The notes beneath the pieces are model-generated. The model had not been told where the DNA came from, did no database searches, and saw nothing but the letters and a program-made list of their open reading frames with translations. The translations under genes were made by a program, and so were the position numbers. A stretch of 32,265 nucleotides of DNA from a virus (taxonomy: Duplodnaviria; Heunggongvirae; Uroviricota; Caudoviricetes): the IMG/VR virus record IMGVR_UViG_2651869694_000010, one strand, 5' to 3'. Position 1 is the stretch's first letter. Every line of letters begins with the position of its first letter. Positions 3,376 to 15,229 of the stretch are shown piece by piece.

Positions 3376-3591
3376 ATGTCAAATAAAATGACTGGTTTAG
3401 TAAAATGGTTTAACGCTGATAAAGGTTTTGGCTTTATTTCTCCTGTTGATGGTAGTAAAGATGTGTTTGTGCATTTTTCTGCGATTCAGAATGATAATTT
3501 TCGAACCTTATTTGAAGGTCAAAAGGTTACCTTCTCTGTAGAGAGTGGTGCTAAAGGTCCTGCAGCAGCAAATGTCATAATTACTGATTAA
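3376..3591 (+). CDS. cspB: cold-shock protein CspB-like
   Basis: [23 protein letters not shown]...VHFSAIQ...[11 protein letters not shown] carries the RNP1/RNP2-like motifs of CspA-family proteins. Confidence 0.85.
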
Positions 3592-6824: not shown

Positions 6825-7040
6825 ATGATGTCTAACAAAATGACTGGTTTAGTGAAATGGTTTAACCCTGAAAAAGGTTTTGGTTTCATCACGCCGAAAG
6901 ATGGTAGCAAAGATGTGTTTGTCCATTTCTCAGTTATTCAGAGCAACGATTTCAAAACGTTAACTGAGAATCAGGAAGTCGAATTTGGTATTGAGAACGG
7001 ACCTAAAGGCCCCGCGGCTGTTCATGTAGTGGCACTTTGA
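6825..7040 (+). CDS. cspI: cold-shock protein CspI-like
   Basis: [36 protein letters not shown]... is a CspA-family sequence, located after Rz as cspI is in Qin. Confidence 0.8.
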
Positions 7041-7889: not shown

Positions 7890-8184
7890 TATGTTTATAG
7901 TATTAGCATCAATTTCTCATCAGATGCTATTCAACAATACAAATTACCCATAAACCTCGTTTTTACGGGGTTTTGTTATATTTAAACATTACCGAATAGA
8001 TATAAATCTCGATTGTCGATGGTATTGGTTGTGTGACAATACCTAGTCTTTCCGGTATGCCTGAAGAGAATACAAACGACAGATTATGTAAGGGAAACGC
8101 GCTGAAACTTTCACTCTTTCATGCTGAGTGATTTGACGTTATATTTTTAGCCGCAAGTGAAGAGCAAACGCATGGAGCGACAAA

Positions 8185-8391
8185 ATGCATAAAGATCAAT
8201 ATACTGATGCCCCCTCCCAGGAGCAGGTTCGTGTAAAAACTATGCTTAATAGCACCATTTCGATGGGTTACCCGGATGTTGTAATTGCATGTATAGAACA
8301 TCAAGTATCTCTGGAAGCATTCAGGGCAATTGAGGCCGCGTTAGTAAAGCACGATAAGAATACGAAGGATTATTCCCTGGTGGTTGACTGA
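8185..8391 (+). CDS. hypothetical small protein (68 aa)
   Basis: ORF only; lies where Qin carries ydfO/ynfO-type accessory genes, but I cannot confirm identity. Confidence 0.3.
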
Positions 8392-8754
8392 TCACCATAA
8401 CTGCTAACCATTCTGACCATTTCACAAGTGACAGAGTCAATATCGTATTCTGTCACTGTCAGGCTAATACAGTACTGCAATTCAACTACAGCAATGCCTC
8501 GTATTTAGGTGAATTTACAATATCGTCCAGTTCGGATGCCGGCTGCATTTCTGAAGATAAGGCATTTCGGTTCGCGTATTTTCCCCTCATGCTCGTCAGT
8601 CCTGCGCGTAGTAAGAAACAGGACACTCACACTAATTTGTGTGGGCATGCTGTGATGTCCTTCTGAATTATCCCCACGCCATTATGTAAAGCTCTGTTTC
8701 AGATGCTCGTCACGGTTGTCAGGCTGTCGGGTCCTCCCTGTGGGGGGCCCTGCC

Positions 8755-8774
8755 ACGGGGCGGGAGCGTCGCGG
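8755..8774. other. cos site (cosN-like cohesive-end region)
   Basis: ACGGGGCGGGAGCGTCGCGG resembles the lambda cosN context ACG-GGGCGGCGACCT-CGCGG as I recall it (four of twelve core positions differ). It lies about 170 bp upstream of the terminase small subunit in a 550-bp non-coding region. Confidence 0.45.
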
Positions 8775-8943
8775 AAAAAGGCTAGTTTTTGAAATTTTAT
8801 TCGTCATCACCACTACTGTAATTGATTGATATTGCAGTGGTTTTATTTTTATGGTGTCGATTCTGATTGTTTTTTGTTCATCACTAACACCGTTTGCCTA
8901 AAGTTGTTCGCAAGATGCATGTTTAAAACATTCTGGAGCGGGT

Positions 8944-9438
8944 ATGGATCGAGAGTTAAAAAATCTGACGCTTAATATCAGTCAACTGGCGGCACTGTCA
9001 GGTGTACATCGCCAGACTGCTGCGGCAAGGCTGCAAAATCTACCCGTTGCAGGGGGGCATGAAAGCAACCTCAAGCTTTATCGGGTGGTTGATATTGTGT
9101 CGGCATTTCTGGCATTACCACCGCCGGTTGCAGAAGGCGAAATGGACGCGCATGAGCGCAAAGCCTGGTATCAGTCTGAACGTGAGCGTCTTAAGTTCGA
9201 ACAGGAAACGGCACAACTCATTCCGGCCAGTGATGTCAGACGGGAGTTTGCCATCTGGGCAAAAGCGGTCGTGCAGGTGCTGGAGACATTACCGGATATT
9301 CTTGAACGTGACTGCGGTCTGCAGCCTGCCGCTGTGAGCCGTGTTCAGTCCATTATTGATGATCTGCGCGATCAGATAGCCCTGCGGGTGACTGAAGCAG
9401 GTGCGGATGATGAGGAGGAATTACAGCAGGAGGAGTAA
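8944..9438 (+). CDS. terminase small subunit (Nu1/NohA-NohD-like)
   Basis: 164 aa with N-terminal helix-turn-helix-like segment LNISQLAALSGVHRQTAAARL and acidic C-terminus, immediately upstream of the large terminase. Confidence 0.8.
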   Translation: MDRELKNLTLNISQLAALSGVHRQTAAARLQNLPVAGGHESNLKLYRVVDIVSAFLALPPPVAEGEMDAHERKAWYQSERERLKFEQETAQLIPASDVRREFAIWAKAVVQVLETLPDILERDCGLQPAAVSRVQSIIDDLRDQIALRVTEAGADDEEELQQEE

Positions 9439-11540
9439 TGCTGAATCAGGAAACCGCAAAGGCAGCACGAACCGATTCAGGTTATATCCTTCGCGCACCG
9501 AGACGAATGCGGGTTGCTGATGCCGTTGCTCAGTATATGCGGGTGCCCATGGGGGCCGGGAACTCAGTCCCGTGGGATCCGCTGGTGGCACCGTATGTTA
9601 TTGAGCCGATGAACTGCCTGGCCTCGCGTGAATACGACGCAGTGATATTTGTTGGCCCGGCACGAACCGGCAAGACTATCGGCCTGATTGACGGCTGGGT
9701 GATTTACAACGTGATTTGCGATCCTGCTGATATGCTGATCATTCAGATGACGGAGGAAAAAGCCCGCGAACACTCCAAAAAACGACTCGCCAGAACGTTT
9801 CGCGTCAGCCCGGAAGTGGTCAGTCGCCTGAGTCCGAACAAAAATGACAACAACGTTTATGACAGAACATTCCTTGCTGGCAACTACCTGAAAATCGGCT
9901 GGCCGTCAGTCAATATCATGTCTTCATCAGATTATAAATGCGTGGCGCTGACGGATTATGACCGTTTTCCGGAAGATATTGATGGTGAGGGGGATGCCTT
10001 CTCTCTTGCCTCAAAACGTACCACCACATTTATGTCCAGTGGTATGACGCTGGTGGAGAGTTCCCCCGGCAGGGATGTGAAGGATGTGAAATGGCGACGG
10101 ACTTCACCGCATGAGGCTCCACCAACCACGGGGATCCTGTCGCTCTATAACCGTGGCGATCGCCGTCGCTGGTACTGGCCCTGTCCACACTGTGGTGAGT
10201 ATTTTCAGCCCTGCGGCGATGTGGTTGCTGGTTTCCGTGATATTGCCGATCCTGTGCTGGCAAGTGAGGCGGCTTATATTCAGTGTCCTTCCTGTTCAGG
10301 ACGGATTTTGCCTGAACAAAAACGCGAGCTGAACGGACGTGGGGTCTGGTTACGGGATGGTGAATCCATCAATGCAGATGGCAGTCGTTATGGTGATCCC
10401 CGGCGTTCACGTATTGCGTCATTCTGGATGGAGGGTCCGGCAGCTGCTTATCAGACACTCTCGCAACTCGTTTACAAACTGCTTACTGCAGAACAGGAAT
10501 ACGAGACAACCGGAAGTGAAGAGACACTCAAGACGGTTATCAATACCGACTGGGGATTACCTTATCTTCCCCGCGCCAGCATGGAGCAACGAAAAAGTGA
10601 ATTGCTTGAGCAGCGGGCAGAGCCAGTTCCTTCCCGCAGTGTGCCGGATGGCGTTAATTTCCTTGTGGCGACAGTGGATGTGCAGGCGGGACGTCATCGC
10701 CGTTTTGTGGTTCAGGTAACGGGCTATGGCAGCCGTGGCGAACGCTGGATTATTGATCGTTACAACATCACGCAGTCATTGCGCGGTGACAGCGACGGGG
10801 AGAGCCAGCGAATTGATCCGGCCAGCTATCCGGAAGACTGGGATGTCCTGCTGACGGATGTTTTTCATAAAAGCTGGCCGCTGGCCTCCGATCCTTCTCA
10901 ACAAATGCGACTGATGGCAATGGCGGTGGACTCCGGCGGTGAAGACGGGGTCACTGATAATGCCTATAAATTCTGGCGTCGTTGCCGTCGTGATGGCCTT
11001 GGTAAACGTATTTACCTGTTTAAGGGTGACAGCATCCGGCGCGCAAAACTGATCAGCCGTACATTCCCTGATAACACCGGACGAACGGGCCGCCGGGCGC
11101 AGGCCGCAGGTGATGTGCCGCTCTGGCTTCTTCAGACGGATGCCCTGAAAGACCGGGTGAATAACGCGTTATGGCGTGACTCGCCAGGTCCCGGCTATGT
11201 GCATTTCCCTGACTGGCTGGGGAGCTGGTTTTACGACGAACTGACGTATGAAGAGCGGAGCAGTGACGGGAAATGGAGTAAGCCGGGTCGCGGTGCCAAC
11301 GAAGCTTTTGACCTGATGGTGTATGCCGAGGCTCTGGTCATTCTGCATGGATACGAAAAGATCCGCTGGCCGGATGCACCGGAGTGGGCGAGCCGGGAAA
11401 CCTGGCTGGAGTGTGTCCCGGACAGTACCGAACCGTCACCCACACCGGAACCGGTATCCACGCCTGTTAAAAAACAAAAACGGAAGAAAACAGTAACTGA
11501 CGATGTTAACCCCTGGCTGACTTCCGGAGGATGGTTATGA
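9438..11540 (+). CDS. A: terminase large subunit (lambda gpA-like)
   Basis: 700 aa with Walker A-like VGPARTGKT near the N-terminus; size and position match lambda gpA. Confidence 0.9.
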   Translation: MLNQETAKAARTDSGYILRAPRRMRVADAVAQYMRVPMGAGNSVPWDPLVAPYVIEPMNCLASREYDAVIFVGPARTGKTIGLIDGWVIYNVICDPADMLIIQMTEEKAREHSKKRLARTFRVSPEVVSRLSPNKNDNNVYDRTFLAGNYLKIGWPSVNIMSSSDYKCVALTDYDRFPEDIDGEGDAFSLASKRTTTFMSSGMTLVESSPGRDVKDVKWRRTSPHEAPPTTGILSLYNRGDRRRWYWPCPHCGEYFQPCGDVVAGFRDIADPVLASEAAYIQCPSCSGRILPEQKRELNGRGVWLRDGESINADGSRYGDPRRSRIASFWMEGPAAAYQTLSQLVYKLLTAEQEYETTGSEETLKTVINTDWGLPYLPRASMEQRKSELLEQRAEPVPSRSVPDGVNFLVATVDVQAGRHRRFVVQVTGYGSRGERWIIDRYNITQSLRGDSDGESQRIDPASYPEDWDVLLTDVFHKSWPLASDPSQQMRLMAMAVDSGGEDGVTDNAYKFWRRCRRDGLGKRIYLFKGDSIRRAKLISRTFPDNTGRTGRRAQAAGDVPLWLLQTDALKDRVNNALWRDSPGPGYVHFPDWLGSWFYDELTYEERSSDGKWSKPGRGANEAFDLMVYAEALVILHGYEKIRWPDAPEWASRETWLECVPDSTEPSPTPEPVSTPVKKQKRKKTVTDDVNPWLTSGGWL

Positions 11541-11749: not shown

Positions 11750-13257
11750 TGGCAATTCTTGATGATGTGATTGGCGTTTTTTCACCAGGATGGAAAGCGG
11801 CAAGGCTGCGTTCCCGTGCGGTGATCCAGGCTTATGAGGCCGTAAAAACGACGCGGACACACAAAGCCCGGCGGGAAAACCGAACTGCCGACCAGTTAAG
11901 CCAGTACGGGGCCGTGTCGTTACGTGAGCAGGCCCGTTACCTTGATAACAACCACGATCTGGTTATTGGTGTATTTGACAAGCTGGAAGAACGGGTGGTG
12001 GGGAAAAACGGGATTATTGTCGAGCCACATCCGGTATTACGCAATGGGGCCATTGCCCGTGACCTGGCTGCGGAGATTCGCACCCGATGGAGTGAATGGT
12101 CTGTCAGCCCGGAAGTCACCGGGCAGTTTACCCGTCCGATGCTGGAACGTCTGATGCTGCGTACCTGGCTGCGCGATGGTGAGGTGTTTGCCCAGATGGT
12201 TTCCGGGCGCATAAACAGCCTGACGCCTTCTGCCGGTGTTCATTTCTGGTTGGAGGCGCTAGAGCCAGACTTTATTCCCATGACCAGTGATGAGAGCAAC
12301 AGGCTGAATCAGGGCGTGTTTGTTGATGACTGGGGGCGTCCCGAAAAATATCTGGTGTATAAAAGCCGTCCCGTATCCGGACGGCAGATGGAAACCAAAG
12401 AAGTGGATGCAGAGCGAATGCTGCATCTTAAATTTGTTCGCCGTCTGCACCAGATGCGCGGGACGTCTTTGTTGTCCGGTGTGCTGATCCGCCTCAGTGC
12501 CCTGAAAGAGTATGAAGATTCTGAGCTGACTGCAGCAAGGATCGCCGCTGCTCTGGGGATGTACATCCGCAAAGGCGACGGGCAGAGCTATGAACCGGAT
12601 GGTAATGGCAGCAAGGATAAGGAACGCGAGCTTACCATTCAGCCAGGCATTATTTACGACGATCTGAAACCCGGCGAAGAAATCGGAATGGTGAAGTCGG
12701 ATCGCCCCAATCCTAATCTTGAAACTTTTCGTAATGGTCAGTTGCGTGCAGTGGCGGCTGGCAGTCGTCTGAGTTTTTCCAGTACAGCGCGCAACTATAA
12801 CGGCACTTACAGCGCCCAGCGTCAGGAGCTGGTTGAATCCACTGATGGCTACCTGATCCTGCAGGACTGGTTTATTGGTGCCGTCACCCGCCCGATGTAC
12901 CGTGCCTGGCTGAAACAGGCTGTGGCATCCGGTGTTATCAGGCTACCCCGCGATCTTGACCGTTCTTCACTGTATACCGCGGTGTATTCCGGACCGGTGA
13001 TGCCGTGGATTGACCCTGTTAAGGAGGCTGAGGCCTGGAAAATCCAGATTCGTGGTGGAGCGGCGACAGAATCAGACTGGGTACGTGCTGGTGGTCGTAA
13101 TCCGGATGATGTCAAACGTCGGCGCAAGGCCGAAATTGATGAAAACCGCAAGCTGGATCTGGTATTTGATACCGATCCGGCCAGTGATAAAGGAGGTAGC
13201 AGTGCCGCAACGAAACGACAGGAGCCGCAGCACACCAACAACCAGTCCGAAGAATAA
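11749..13257 (+). CDS. B: portal protein (lambda gpB-like)
   Basis: 502 aa from ATG at 11749, in the canonical position after W. Confidence 0.9.
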   Translation: MAILDDVIGVFSPGWKAARLRSRAVIQAYEAVKTTRTHKARRENRTADQLSQYGAVSLREQARYLDNNHDLVIGVFDKLEERVVGKNGIIVEPHPVLRNGAIARDLAAEIRTRWSEWSVSPEVTGQFTRPMLERLMLRTWLRDGEVFAQMVSGRINSLTPSAGVHFWLEALEPDFIPMTSDESNRLNQGVFVDDWGRPEKYLVYKSRPVSGRQMETKEVDAERMLHLKFVRRLHQMRGTSLLSGVLIRLSALKEYEDSELTAARIAAALGMYIRKGDGQSYEPDGNGSKDKERELTIQPGIIYDDLKPGEEIGMVKSDRPNPNLETFRNGQLRAVAAGSRLSFSSTARNYNGTYSAQRQELVESTDGYLILQDWFIGAVTRPMYRAWLKQAVASGVIRLPRDLDRSSLYTAVYSGPVMPWIDPVKEAEAWKIQIRGGAATESDWVRAGGRNPDDVKRRRKAEIDENRKLDLVFDTDPASDKGGSSAATKRQEPQHTNNQSEE

Positions 13258-13270
13258 TTCCTGGTTCAGG

Positions 13271-15229
13271 ATGCAGGCTGGTCACCAGAGTGACGCGGAT
13301 ATTTATATTTATGACGAGATTGGTTTCTGGGGTGTTACGGCGAAGCAGTTTATCAGTGATCTGAATGCACTGGGCGATATCACCCACATTAATCTCCATA
13401 TCAATTCACCGGGTGGCGATGTCTTTGAAGGCATCGCCATTTTTAATGCACTGAAAACACATGGTGCGTCCATTACCGTTTATGTCGACGGAGTGGCGGC
13501 ATCAATGGCGTCGGTCATTGCGATGGTGGGAAACCCGGTCATTATGCCGGAAAACACTTTCATGATGATTCATAAACCATTTGGCTTTACGGGCGGTGAT
13601 GCGGAGGACATGCGCACCTATGCCGACCTGCTCGATAAAGTTGAGGCGGTTCTCTTACCCGCTTATGCACAGAAAACCGGGAAAACCACCGATGAAATTG
13701 CTGCCATGCTGGCGGATGAGACCTGGATGTCCGGAGCCGAATGTCTGGCTCATGGATTTGCTGACCAGGTGACGCCAGCGGTTAAGGCAATGGCATGTAT
13801 TCAGTCAAAACGTACAGAGGAATTTAAAAAGATGCCGGAATCTATTCGAAACATGATTACTCCGCCACGTAACAGTGCTCCACGCGTACCGGATGATGAA
13901 CCAGCAGCACCCCGGACGCCAGTGCAGGCAGCAGCACCCGTGGTGGATGAAAACAGCATCCGTGCGCAGGTACTGGCAGAGCAAAAAGCGCGTGTAAACG
14001 GTATTAATGATCTGTTTGCCATGTTTGGCGGGCGTTATCAGGCGCTGCAGGCTCAGTGCCTTGCCGATCCTGAGTGTTCGCTGGAGCAGGCCCGCGAGAA
14101 GCTGTTGAACGAGATGGGGCGAGAGTCCACGCCATCCAATAAAAATACCCCGGCTCATATTTATGCCGGTAACGGTAATTTTGTGGGGGACGGGATCCGC
14201 CAGGCGCTGATGGCGCGTGCCGGATTTGAAAAAACCGAACGTGATAATGTCTACAACGGGATGACCCTGCGTGAATATGCCCGTATGTCACTGACTGAAC
14301 GGGGTATTGGGGTTTCCAGTTATAACCCGATGCAGATGGTCGGTGCGGCGTTCACACACAGTACGTCTGACTTCGGTAATATTCTGCTGGATGTTGCGAA
14401 CAAAGCCATTCTGCAGGGCTGGGAAGATGCCCCTGAAACCTATGAACAGTGGACGCGGAAAGGTCAGTTGTCTGATTTTAAAATTGCCCATCGTGTGGGT
14501 ATGGGGGGCTTCAGTGCTCTGCGTCAGGTGCGTGAAGGGGCGGAATATAAATACGTCACCACCGGAGATAAACAGGCCACTATTGCACTGGCGACCTATG
14601 GCGAGCTGTTCAGTATCACCCGTCAGGCCATTATCAATGATGATCTGAATATGCTGACCGATGTCCCGATGAAACTGGGCCGTGCGGCGAAATCCACTAT
14701 TGCCGATCTGGTTTATGCCATTCTGACGTCTAACCCGAAAATCTCCACAGATAATGTAAGTCTGTTCGATAAAGCGAAACATGCAAACGTACTGGAGAGC
14801 GCTGCAATGGACGTGGCATCGCTGGATAAAGCCCGCCAGTTGATGCGCGTTCAGAAAGAGGGGGAGCGTCATCTGAATATTCGTCCTGCGTTCGTACTGG
14901 TACCGACGGCGATGGAGTCTGTTGCTAACCAGGTCATTCGCTCCTCAAGTGTCAAGGGGGCTGACATTAACGCCGGTATTATTAACCCGGTGAAAGATTT
15001 TGCGACCGTTATTGCAGAGCCTCGTCTTGATGATAACAGCCAGACCACCTTCTACCTGGCTGCGTCAAAAGGCTCCGATACGATTGAAGTGGCTTATCTC
15101 AACGGTGTGGATACGCCATATATTGATCAGATGGAGGGCTTCAGTGTGGATGGCGTGACAACGAAAGTGCGTATTGACGCCGGTGTCGCGCCAGTTGATC
15201 ACCGCGGTCTGGTGAAATGTACGGCGTAA
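13271..15229 (+). CDS. prohead protease-scaffold-major capsid fusion protein
   Basis: N-terminal ClpP-like (S14) protease region (INSPGGDVFEGIAIFNALK...ASMASVIAMVG...MIHKP), a Pro/Ala-rich linker, then an approximately 350-aa C-terminal capsid-like region. A single 652-aa ORF replaces lambda C, Nu3 and E. Confidence 0.75.
   Translation: MQAGHQSDADIYIYDEIGFWGVTAKQFISDLNALGDITHINLHINSPGGDVFEGIAIFNALKTHGASITVYVDGVAASMASVIAMVGNPVIMPENTFMMIHKPFGFTGGDAEDMRTYADLLDKVEAVLLPAYAQKTGKTTDEIAAMLADETWMSGAECLAHGFADQVTPAVKAMACIQSKRTEEFKKMPESIRNMITPPRNSAPRVPDDEPAAPRTPVQAAAPVVDENSIRAQVLAEQKARVNGINDLFAMFGGRYQALQAQCLADPECSLEQAREKLLNEMGRESTPSNKNTPAHIYAGNGNFVGDGIRQALMARAGFEKTERDNVYNGMTLREYARMSLTERGIGVSSYNPMQMVGAAFTHSTSDFGNILLDVANKAILQGWEDAPETYEQWTRKGQLSDFKIAHRVGMGGFSALRQVREGAEYKYVTTGDKQATIALATYGELFSITRQAIINDDLNMLTDVPMKLGRAAKSTIADLVYAILTSNPKISTDNVSLFDKAKHANVLESAAMDVASLDKARQLMRVQKEGERHLNIRPAFVLVPTAMESVANQVIRSSSVKGADINAGIINPVKDFATVIAEPRLDDNSQTTFYLAASKGSDTIEVAYLNGVDTPYIDQMEGFSVDGVTTKVRIDAGVAPVDHRGLVKCTA

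What the first reader, a model, noticed from the sequence alone, without database searches (positions are those of the whole stretch)
8740..8780. cos-like site with a variant cosN core
ACGGGGCGGGAGCGTCGCGG matches the flanks of lambda cosN as I remember them but differs at four positions in the 12-nt cohesive-end core. If real, the cohesive ends would differ from lambda/phage 21, which bears on terminase specificity.
Basis: partly seen in the sequence, partly recalled or inferred. Interest (0 to 1): 0.4.

Follow-up and report, generated by a model that had tools for sequence, protein, structure and literature searches.

The report
Lambda-type cos site, known variant
This is the DNA-packaging cut site (cos) of a common lambda-like E. 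coli prophage; its sticky-end sequence differs from lambda's at four bases, but two deposited phage genome records begin and end at exactly this sequence and this kind of variation is documented, so it is real but ordinary.

Summary
The motif is present exactly as described. ACG|GGGCGGGAGCGT|CGCGG lies at 8755-8774, and the 12-nt core (8758-8769) differs from lambda's GGGCGGCGACCT at positions 7, 8, 9 and 11. It sits in a full lambda-style cos. cosQ (GGGTCCT) lies 29 nt upstream of the predicted nick. An AT-rich cosB with R-like repeats and an IHF-like site lies downstream, followed by a small terminase (DUF1441, a remote Nu1 relative) and a gpA-family large terminase. The GenBank records of phages cdtI and Tritos begin with GGGCGGGAGCGTCGCGG and end with CCTGCCACG, which is the junction predicted here. 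A cos region like this one occurs in about 40% of complete E. coli genomes, and this core was the second most common in a viral-contig survey. The Feiss laboratory has reported that natural variation in cosN bp 7-12 is common and that right-half changes have little effect on nicking. Packaging specificity lies in cosB and the small subunit. So the cos identification stands, but the suggested link to terminase specificity does not. The feature is already known and of low interest. Direct end-mapping data for this phage type could not be read, so the nick positions remain inferred.

The parts
8729..8735 (+). cosQ-like element GGGTCCT, the packaging-termination signal in lambda
   Evidence: Identical to the lambda heptamer that starts 30 nt before the nick; here it starts 29 nt before. 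It varies in at most 1 of the 70 distinct sequences from loci carrying an identical TerS, while the spacer 8736-8752 varies freely. Function inferred by analogy (PMC4669245, PMC9026076).
8756..8771 (+). cosN: the 12-bp cohesive-end core plus the flanking CG dinucleotides. Predicted nicks are between 8757/8758 (top strand) and 8769/8770 (bottom strand).
   Evidence: CG|GGGCGGGAGCGT|CG. 8 of 16 bp are rotationally symmetric, against 10 of 16 in lambda. The flanks and left half are identical to lambda. Nick positions are inferred from lambda and from the record ends of cdtI and Tritos.
8758..8769 (+). Predicted 12-nt 5' cohesive end GGGCGGGAGCGT
   Evidence: Differs from lambda at positions 7, 8, 9 and 11. 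Identical to the first 12 nt of AB285204 (cdtI) and OV696610 (Tritos). Second most common core in the IMG/VR survey, 12 of 126 matches.
8775..8797 (+). Conserved block AAAAAGGCTAGTTTTTGAAATTT between cosN and the first R-like element; function unknown
   Evidence: 8776-8797 are invariant and 8775 varies in 3 of the 70 distinct sequences with identical TerS. GGCTAGTTTT is conserved across distant DUF1441-TerS cos sites and is shared with cdtI and Tritos. It occupies the position of lambda's CGCTATTTATGAAAATTTT.
8802..8813 (+). R3-like candidate TerS-binding element CGTCATCACCAC (bp 45-56 from the nick)
   Evidence: TCATCAYCAY is conserved in 13 cos regions with DUF1441 TerS. Its position matches lambda R3 (bp 50-65) and N15 R3 (bp 48-60) (PMC9026076). 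In cdtI and Tritos this position holds GGCGGCGGCA instead, alongside a divergent TerS. Binding is inferred, not shown.
8819..8831 (-). IHF-like site; the minus strand reads TATCAATCAATTA, matching WATCAANNNNTTR
   Evidence: Consensus match read from the sequence. The TTGAT core is mostly conserved in the footprint. It lies between the R3-like and R2-like elements, as I1 does in lambda. This is only a consensus match in AT-rich DNA, so it is weak evidence.
8851..8860 (-). R2-like candidate element, inverted (reverse complement TCGACACCAT)
   Evidence: ATGTCGA is largely conserved across DUF1441-type cos regions, and GTGTC 8854-8858 is invariant among loci with identical TerS. 7 of 10 bases match the R3-like element when inverted (my own comparison of the sequences printed). 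Inferred.
8876..8887 (+). R1-like candidate element GTTCATCACTAA
   Evidence: GTTCAYCAY is conserved in the footprint. It shares TCATCAC with the R3-like element. Inferred.
8944..9438 (+). Small terminase subunit (TerS), DUF1441 family
   Evidence: Pfam DUF1441, E 2.7e-41. 100% identical to the annotated TerS of phages Ayreon and vB_EcoS-569R4 and 99.4% to that of mEp460. Profile-profile match to the lambda Nu1 family: 77% probability, E 2e-5, collinear, with the N-terminal HTH segments aligned. No similarity to Nu1 by BLASTP.
9438..11540 (+). Large terminase subunit (TerL), gpA family, with ATPase and endonuclease domains
   Evidence: Pfam GpA_ATPase 1.6e-71 and GpA_nuclease 1.1e-85. 25% identical to lambda gpA. 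88% identical to cdtI TerL, nearly identical from about residue 380 to the end, with the first ~20 residues unalignable.

Best explanation
This is the cohesive-end site (cos) of a mEp460/Ayreon-like lambdoid prophage of E. coli, and it is built like lambda's. Shown: the sequence elements, their order and their conservation. Inferred by analogy with lambda: dimers of the DUF1441 small terminase bind repeated R-like elements in the AT-rich cosB (8775-8943), probably helped by an IHF-induced bend. This positions the gpA-family large terminase on cosN. The large terminase then nicks the top strand between 8757 and 8758 and the bottom strand between 8769 and 8770, which gives 12-nt 5' overhangs reading GGGCGGGAGCGT. 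Packaging proceeds rightwards into the prohead and stops at the next cos, where cosQ (8729-8735) is needed for the terminating cut. The four differences from lambda lie in or next to the right half of cosN. The Feiss laboratory found that this half tolerates change because the TerL that nicks it is anchored by cosB-bound TerS. The variant is therefore best read as neutral or weakly constrained drift within a conserved cosN frame, not as a specificity determinant. Specificity resides in cosB together with the TerS DNA-binding domain.
For: (1) There is one exact match to the lambda cosN flanks and left half in the window, and none in 100 shuffles. (2) cosQ GGGTCCT is at the right distance. (3) The site lies in a 552-bp intergenic gap between the lysis module (holin, lysozyme, Rz) and TerS-TerL-portal-head genes, downstream of a Q antiterminator. 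(4) The phage cdtI and Tritos records start with GGGCGGGAGCGTCGCGGAAAAAGGCTAGTTTTT and end with CCTGCCACG, so they were opened at exactly the predicted nick. (5) The mEp460_4F5 virion assembly is opened 5 nt from the predicted top-strand nick and lacks 3 nt near the predicted bottom-strand nick. (6) In 80 loci collected through the TerS protein, not the DNA motif, the left half GGGCGG is invariant and CCACG and cosQ are nearly so, while the cosQ-cosN spacer and core positions 7, 11 and 12 vary. (7) Modularity: window and cdtI TerL are about 99% identical across the nuclease half and share this cosN. Their first ~20 residues, their TerS proteins (42% identity) and their cosB sequences beyond bp 33 all differ. 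(8) The footprint of 13 DUF1441-type cos regions shows an R3-like, IHF-like, inverted R2-like and R1-like layout, with the R3-like element at bp 45-56. Lambda R3 is at bp 50-65 and N15 R3 at bp 48-60. (9) DUF1441 TerS is a remote, collinear homologue of Nu1. (10) Published work reports that right-half cosN variation is common and phenotypically mild, and that specificity lies in cosB-TerS (PMC4669245; PMC9026076).
Against: I could read no experimental end-mapping for this phage type. Asakura et al. 2007 (cdtI) and Vahanian et al. 2017 are not in the held library. The Ayreon paper states that its cos was not located. The Tritos paper has one occurrence of 'cos', which was not among the passages shown, and no mention of cohesive ends, termini or PhageTerm. 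The cdtI and Tritos records could therefore have been opened by analogy with lambda rather than by measurement. TerL is only 25% identical to gpA and the cosQ-cosN distance is 1 nt shorter, so the nick positions might not be identical to lambda's. The R-like and IHF-like elements are short motifs in AT-rich DNA and no binding has been shown. The whole prophage is not in the window, so its inducibility is unknown.
Confidence: 0.85

Rival explanations
1. It is a real cos site, but the nicks are not where lambda's are. The overhang could have a different length or be offset by a base or two, so the true cohesive end would not be exactly GGGCGGGAGCGT.
For: TerL is only 25% identical to lambda gpA. 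The cosQ-to-nick distance is 29 nt, not 30. One relative with identical TerS has an 11-nt core, and mEp460_4F5 lacks 3 nt at this spot. No readable experimental mapping was found.
Against: Two independently deposited records start and end exactly at the lambda-equivalent nick. The CG dinucleotides flanking both predicted nicks and the left half are conserved exactly, as in lambda. Feiss et al. define lambda-like phages by 12-base 5' extensions and include Gifsy-1, reported to differ from lambda at bp 8, 9 and 11.
Confidence: 0.07
2. It is a relic cos in a defective prophage: the sequence is intact but is no longer used for packaging in this host.
For: Lambdoid prophage remnants are abundant in E. 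coli. This cos region is found in 2113 of 5426 complete genomes, and many of those prophages must be defective. Only 32 kb of the element is visible, and the immunity, replication and integration regions are outside the window.
Against: All late genes examined are full-length: Q, holin, lysozyme, Rz, TerS, TerL, portal, fused protease-capsid, tape measure, gpJ and side tail fibre. TerS is 100% identical to that of the plaque-forming phage Ayreon and 99.4% to mEp460, and the 1-kb cos-TerS region (8500-9500) matches phi458 at 98.3% and mEp460 at 99.5% over the parts they cover. Even if this copy is inactive, what the site is does not change.
Confidence: 0.1
3. It is a chance G+C-rich resemblance to lambda cosN with no packaging role, or another kind of element such as a structured RNA or a terminator.
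For: The local sequence is G+C-rich (69% over 8700-8780). Allowing 2 mismatches, the pattern is expected 0.23 times per window by chance.
Against: The exact match occurred in 0 of 100 shuffles. cosQ co-occurs at the right spacing and the site lies just upstream of the terminase genes. The identical sequence lies at the record termini of phages cdtI and Tritos. No Rfam family matches 8000-9500, and no ORF of 60 aa or more overlaps it.
Confidence: 0.01
4. The right-half differences are a specificity determinant: this TerL requires GAGCGT and would not cut lambda's cosN, and lambda's would not cut this one.
For: The window-type and cdtI-type TerL proteins share a nearly identical nuclease half, and both usually accompany this core. 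No cross-packaging experiment exists for this pair.
Against: With TerS held identical, the core varies at positions 7, 11 and 12 (63 GCGT, 13 GCGG, 4 others). TerL proteins about 76-81% identical to the window's accompany at least seven different right halves. Lambda TerL tolerates right-half changes, including C11G, and N15 terminase packages lambda DNA despite cosN differences.
Confidence: 0.05

Closest known systems
cos of phages cdtI (AB285204) and Tritos (OV696610)
   Same: cosQ, the CCTGCCACG left flank, the 12-nt core GGGCGGGAGCGT and the next 21 bp are identical. TerL is 88% identical overall and about 99% across the nuclease half.
   Different: From bp 34 onward cosB is unrelated. For example, GGCGGCGGCA occupies the place of TCATCACCAC. 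TerS is only about 42% identical and the first ~20 residues of TerL do not align. This is the same kind of module swap as between lambda and phage 21.
cos of phage lambda (cosQ-cosN-cosB, Nu1/gpA terminase)
   Same: The order and spacing of cosQ, cosN and cosB. The ACG/CGCGG flanks and the left half GGGCGG are identical. The R3-like element lies about 45-56 bp from the nick with an IHF-like site after it. TerL belongs to the gpA family, and TerL overlaps or abuts TerS.
   Different: The core differs at bp 7, 8, 9 and 11. Rotational symmetry is 8/16 against 10/16. cosQ is 1 nt closer. The cosB sequence is unrelated. TerS is DUF1441, related to Nu1 only at profile level, and TerL is 25% identical.
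cos of Salmonella phages Fels-1 and Gifsy-1 and of E. coli phages mEp213/LLS (natural cosN right-half variants)
   Same: Fels-1 has ACG|GGGCGGCAGCGG|CGCGG with a DUF1441 TerS. Gifsy-1 is reported to differ from lambda at bp 8, 9 and 11, three of the four positions that differ here. mEp213 and LLS are inferred to use GGGCGGCGCGCT. All keep the left half and flanks.
   Different: Each has its own right half. The window additionally differs at position 7 (G for C). Gifsy-2 has a more divergent sequence at this place, ACGGGTGGCTTCGGGCTCGCGG.
cos sites of phage-inducible chromosomal islands (PICIs) that hijack lambda-like terminases
   Same: PICIs carry cosQ and cosN nearly identical to those of their helper phages (PMC9026076).
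   Different: PICI cos sites lack R2, R1 and I1, and are followed by an rpp gene rather than by TerS-TerL and head genes. The window's cos is followed by a complete terminase and morphogenesis module, so it is a phage cos.

Membership tests
[quoted passage not shown] | cosN with a 12-bp core of significant identity to lambda, flanked by conserved CG dinucleotides at both nick sites | tested here: met
   8 of 12 core positions and all flanking bases are identical to lambda. The left half is 6/6.
[quoted passage not shown] | Partial two-fold rotational symmetry of the 16-bp cosN | tested here: met
   8 of 16 bp are symmetric, against 10 of 16 in lambda. The flanking CG pairs remain symmetric.
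[quoted passage not shown] | cosQ heptamer about 30 bp upstream of the top-strand nick | tested here: met
   GGGTCCT at 8729-8735, starting 29 nt before the nick. It is nearly invariant in relatives while the spacer varies.
[quoted passage not shown] | cosB with TerS-binding R sequence(s), R3 about 48-65 bp from the nick; complex type with an IHF site and inverted R2 | tested here: inconclusive
   Conserved candidates lie at bp 45-56 (R3-like), 62-74 (IHF-like), 94-103 (inverted) and 119-130. They are short motifs and binding is untested.
[quoted passage not shown] | Location immediately upstream of the TerS and gpA-family TerL genes | tested here: met
   TerS starts 187 bp after the nick, against 191 bp in lambda. 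TerL has Pfam GpA_ATPase and GpA_nuclease domains.
[quoted passage not shown] | Virion DNA physically ends in 12-nt 5' overhangs at these positions | not testable with these tools
   The evidence is indirect: the cdtI and Tritos records are opened exactly here and the mEp460_4F5 assembly is opened within 5 nt. The primary papers were not readable.
Nu1-type small terminase (winged-HTH DNA-binding domain, oligomerisation segment, TerL-binding C-terminus) | Sequence homology to lambda Nu1 | tested here: inconclusive
   No Phage_Nu1 Pfam hit was returned at E <= 0.001; only DUF1441 matched. BLASTP finds nothing. hhalign gives 77% probability, E 2e-5, collinear over 140 columns. This indicates a remote relative, not a family member by standard criteria.
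PICI cos | cos followed by an rpp gene, without R2, R1 or I1, inside a chromosomal island that lacks morphogenesis genes | tested here: not met
   The site is followed by TerS, TerL, portal, capsid and tail genes.

The most novel reading that the evidence does not exclude
The hypervariability of cosN bp 7-12 among otherwise near-identical lambdoid phages may be adaptive rather than neutral. Different cohesive ends could keep genomes of co-resident or co-induced prophages, or of satellites (PICIs), from annealing or being ligated to each other. They could also penalise recombinants that inherit mismatched left and right ends. This window's core would then be one allele of a balanced polymorphism. 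Points compatible with this: T/G polymorphism at position 12 among phages with identical TerS (63 vs 13 of 80), many right-half alleles on similar TerL backgrounds, and mosaic junctions exactly at cosN.
Probability: 0.08. Interest if true: 0.45.

Novelty: already known. Interest (0 to 1): 0.1.

Why it matters
It matters little beyond annotation. Fixing the cos position lets this very common E. coli prophage family (mEp460, Ayreon, phi458 and hundreds of prophages) be oriented and opened correctly. The Ayreon authors said explicitly that they could not place cos. It also predicts the cohesive-end sequence, which is needed for end-ligation, cosmid-style cloning, or judging whether hybrids with other lambdoid phages would carry mismatched ends. 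The family offers a natural data set that agrees with the Feiss laboratory's asymmetric model of cosN: the left half and flanks are constrained and the right half is free. That model is already published.

Tried and rejected
1. Full-text search for the core GGGCGGGAGCGT found only two unrelated eukaryotic papers.

2. Three key papers are not held: Asakura 2007 by DOI and by PMC id and Vahanian 2017 by PubMed id. I therefore could not confirm that the cdtI ends were measured, or whether this exact variant is tabulated there.

3. The Tritos paper and the Ayreon paper give no end mapping in the text I read. Ayreon's cos was explicitly left unlocated.

4. The Rfam scan of 8000-9500 found nothing. 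The promoter and terminator scan found numbers at chance level. Its single terminator-like hairpin led to the cosB inverted-repeat side observation.

5. The repeat finder on 8720-8960 reported no direct repeats. The R-like elements are too short and degenerate for it and emerged only from the comparative footprint.

6. BLASTP of TerS against Nu1 found nothing. Profile-profile comparison was needed. The PDB sequence search with the TerS profile gave no meaningful hit. I did not run a structure prediction, because the fold of TerS is peripheral to the finding.

7. I considered a PICI cos and rejected it, because a full morphogenesis module follows the site.

8. My first viral-contig survey fixed the left half in the pattern, so it cannot show left-half conservation. 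I corrected this with a TerS-anchored sample, but that sample contains only close relatives with 100% identical TerS. Gifsy-2 shows that the left half is not universal across the DUF1441 family.

Full report
**Observation.** The sequence ACGGGGCGGGAGCGTCGCGG is at window 8755-8774 on the + strand. I read lambda's termini from NC_001416 rather than from memory. The record ends with ...CGGGTCCTTTCCGGTGATCCGACAGGTTACG and begins with GGGCGGCGACCTCGCGGGTTTTCGC. The window reads ...CGGGTCCTCCCTGTGGGGGGCCCTGCCACG | GGGCGGGAGCGT | CGCGGAAAAAGGC. The flanks ACG and CGCGG and core positions 1-6 are identical to lambda. The core differs at positions 7, 8, 9 and 11. The pattern with positions 7-12 left free occurs once in the window and in none of 100 dinucleotide-preserving shuffles. 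With two mismatches allowed the expectation rises to 0.23, so it is the exact match plus its context that carries weight.

**Context.** The site lies in a 552-bp gap with no ORF of 60 aa or more, inside the late region of a lambdoid prophage.
- Upstream lie a Q antiterminator (1653-2447), a P21-type holin, a lysozyme, Rz, and two cold-shock-protein genes.
- Downstream lie a DUF1441 protein annotated as small terminase in phages, a gpA-family large terminase (ATPase plus nuclease domains), a lambda-family portal and a fused ClpP-protease/capsid gene of the Gifsy-2 kind.
- These are followed by tape measure, gpJ and side tail fibre genes.
- No Rfam family and no tRNA is present near the site.
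- The lambda cosQ heptamer GGGTCCT is at 8729-8735 and starts 29 nt before the predicted nick, against 30 nt in lambda.

**Related sequences.** The closest phages are mEp460, Ayreon, phi458 and vB_EcoS-569R4. The decisive comparison is with phages cdtI (AB285204) and Tritos (OV696610). Both records begin with GGGCGGGAGCGTCGCGGAAAAAGGCTAGTTTTT and end with ...CCTGCCACG. The mEp460_4F5 assembly from virion DNA is opened 5 nt to the left of that point and lacks 3 nt near the predicted bottom-strand nick. An assembler breaking at a physical end could produce that pattern, but this is weak evidence. The cos region is very common: 2113 of 5426 complete E. coli genomes have a match and 1198 have one covering at least 80% of a 301-bp query.

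**Natural variation.** A scan of IMG/VR with ACGGGGCGG-N6-CGCGG, capped at 120 loci, gave 126 matches.
- 88 matches have GGGTCC within 60 nt upstream, and others have the Fels-1-type GGTACTCC at that place.
- The commonest cores are lambda's GGGCGGCGACCT (51), the window's GGGCGGGAGCGT (12), GGGCGGCGCGCT (8, the core inferred for mEp213 and LLS in PMC12315714), and GGGCGGCAGCGG (6, as in Fels-1).
- Many rarer cores also occur.
- The window's core accompanies window-type TerS/TerL and, in one locus, cdtI-type TerS/TerL. TerL proteins about 76-81% identical to the window's accompany at least seven different right halves.

That scan fixed the left half, so I also collected 80 loci through the TerS protein. 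All 80 carry a TerS identical to the window's.
- 63 have GCGT at core positions 9-12, 13 have GCGG, and 4 have other right-half variants, including a 1-nt deletion.
- The left half GGGCGG is invariant, and CCACG and cosQ are nearly so. Only one rearranged locus lacks cosQ.
- The cosQ-cosN spacer varies freely.

This asymmetry matches Feiss et al. 2015 (PMC4669245).
- They report that differences at bp 7-12 are common among lambda-like phages. N15 differs at 9 and 12 and Gifsy-1 at 8, 9 and 11.
- Right-half mutations have minimal phenotype. C11G has none, whereas the symmetric G2C costs about 10-fold in yield.
- Lambda TerL nicks right-half variants efficiently.
- The CG dinucleotides at the nicks and cosQ are conserved.

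The window's core has G at position 11, the same base as the silent lambda C11G mutation. It differs from lambda at the three positions reported for Gifsy-1, plus position 7.

**Mechanism.** The organisation matches lambda's in every feature I could test.
- *Footprint.* An alignment of 13 cos regions with DUF1441 TerS proteins 56-100% identical to the window's shows conserved blocks. They are AAAAGGCTAGTTTT just right of cosN, TCATCAYCAY at bp 47-56 from the nick, a TTGAT core, an inverted ATGTCGA, and GTTCAYCAY.
- *Window coordinates.* These blocks are 8775-8797, 8802-8813, 8819-8831 (minus strand TATCAATCAATTA, matching the IHF consensus WATCAANNNNTTR), 8851-8860 and 8876-8887. Lambda R3 is at bp 50-65 and N15 R3 at bp 48-60, and the cosN-to-R3 distance is critical (PMC9026076).
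- *TerS.* DUF1441 TerS has no BLASTP similarity to Nu1. A profile-profile comparison aligns the two families collinearly over 140 columns (77% probability, E 2e-5). The window's NISQLAALSGVHRQTAAARL aligns with Nu1's helix-turn-helix segment NKKQLADIFGASIRTIQNW.
- *Modularity.* Window and cdtI TerL are 88% identical, and nearly identical from residue 380 to the end (the nuclease half). Their first ~20 residues cannot be aligned. Their TerS proteins are about 42% identical. Their cos sequences are identical through bp 33 and unrelated beyond, with GGCGGCGGCA replacing TCATCACCAC at the R3 position. This parallels the lambda/21 case, where cosQ and cosN are identical and specificity resides in cosB and TerS.

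I conclude that the DUF1441 TerS binds cosB, probably with IHF. It positions the gpA-type TerL to nick at 8757/8758 and 8769/8770, which gives 12-nt 5' ends reading GGGCGGGAGCGT, and cosQ serves termination. The sequence elements and their conservation are shown. Binding, bending and the exact nick positions are inferred.

**What remains open.** I found no readable experimental end mapping for this phage type. The cdtI paper (Asakura 2007) and the Feiss-laboratory survey of natural cosN variants (Vahanian 2017) are not in the held library. Ayreon's authors state that they only expected cos to lie upstream of TerS. The passages shown from the Tritos paper do not describe its termini. TerL is only 25% identical to gpA. 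I give a small probability (0.07) that the nicks are offset from lambda's, and about 0.1 that this particular prophage copy is no longer active. Neither would change what the site is.

**Verdict.** The suggestion that the four differences bear on terminase specificity is not supported by the published genetics or by the natural variation seen here. The variant lies at the record termini of two deposited phage genomes, it is the second most common core in my sample, and variation of this kind has been described. The finding is already known and of low interest (0.1). Its practical value is a precise cos annotation for a very common E. coli prophage family. The only more novel reading that I cannot exclude is that right-half diversity is maintained by selection, for example against annealing between co-resident phage or satellite genomes. 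I rate that at about 0.08.

Noticed in passing
window 8812-8841 (core 8816-8837): An inverted repeat, CTGTAAT-N8-ATTACAG in most relatives (ATTGCAG in the window), is centred on the IHF-like TTGAT core of cosB and followed by TTTTATTTTT. The simple scan scored it as terminator-like. In 55 distinct related sequences 85% of stem cells are Watson-Crick pairs, against 19-43% when one arm is slid. One pair (8814-8839) shows four standard pair types (TG 29, TA 12, CG 7, AT 1). The repeat is absent from more distant DUF1441-type cos sites. It could be a TerS dimer operator, or a terminator read through by Q-modified polymerase.
   Followed up: partly
L011, L031, L120, L123 (IMG/VR loci): Mosaic junctions lie exactly at cosN. 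Each locus has a cdtI-type left flank (GCGGGTCCTTCCGGTGGGGTGGCCTGCCACG). In L011, L031 and L123 it is joined to a lambda/21-type right flank and Nu1-type TerS. In L120 it is joined to a window-type right flank. The core alleles differ between these loci. This suggests that recombination or packaging-derived hybrids shuffle the right-end and left-end modules at cos.
   Followed up: no
L037 (cos at 93, 8228, 10764), L095 (two cos in direct orientation), L021, L032, L061 (two cos in inverted orientation 500-870 bp apart): Some viral contigs carry two or three lambda-type cos sites close together. Several are preceded by a CCGGCTTTTTTT terminator-like tail and followed by no TerL. They may be PICI-type satellites next to prophages, or tandem elements. 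The inverted pairs are odd.
   Followed up: no
window 3376-3591 and 6825-7040: Two cold-shock-domain protein genes (CSD, E 8e-32 and 9e-31) are embedded in the late and lysis region. They resemble the CspI/CspB-like morons reported as highly expressed from prophage Tritos in E. coli LF82 (PMC9928086).
   Followed up: no
window 13010-15229: A single 739-aa ORF fuses a ClpP-type prohead protease domain to a major capsid domain. This is the Gifsy-2-type head arrangement mentioned for mEp213 and LLS in PMC12315714.
   Followed up: no
L210 1-30 and L209 (LR595868 mEp460_4F5 termini): The record is opened 5 nt left of the predicted top-strand nick and reads GGGCGGGAGCGCGG. It lacks 3 nt near the predicted bottom-strand nick relative to all other relatives. 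This is probably an assembly artefact at the cohesive ends of virion DNA.
   Followed up: partly
L007 1020-1060 (Gifsy-2): At the equivalent place Gifsy-2 has CGCCACGGGTGGCTTCGGGCTCGCGG. This is much more divergent (left half GGTGGC) even though its TerS is also DUF1441. The left half is therefore not universally conserved in this terminase family.
   Followed up: no
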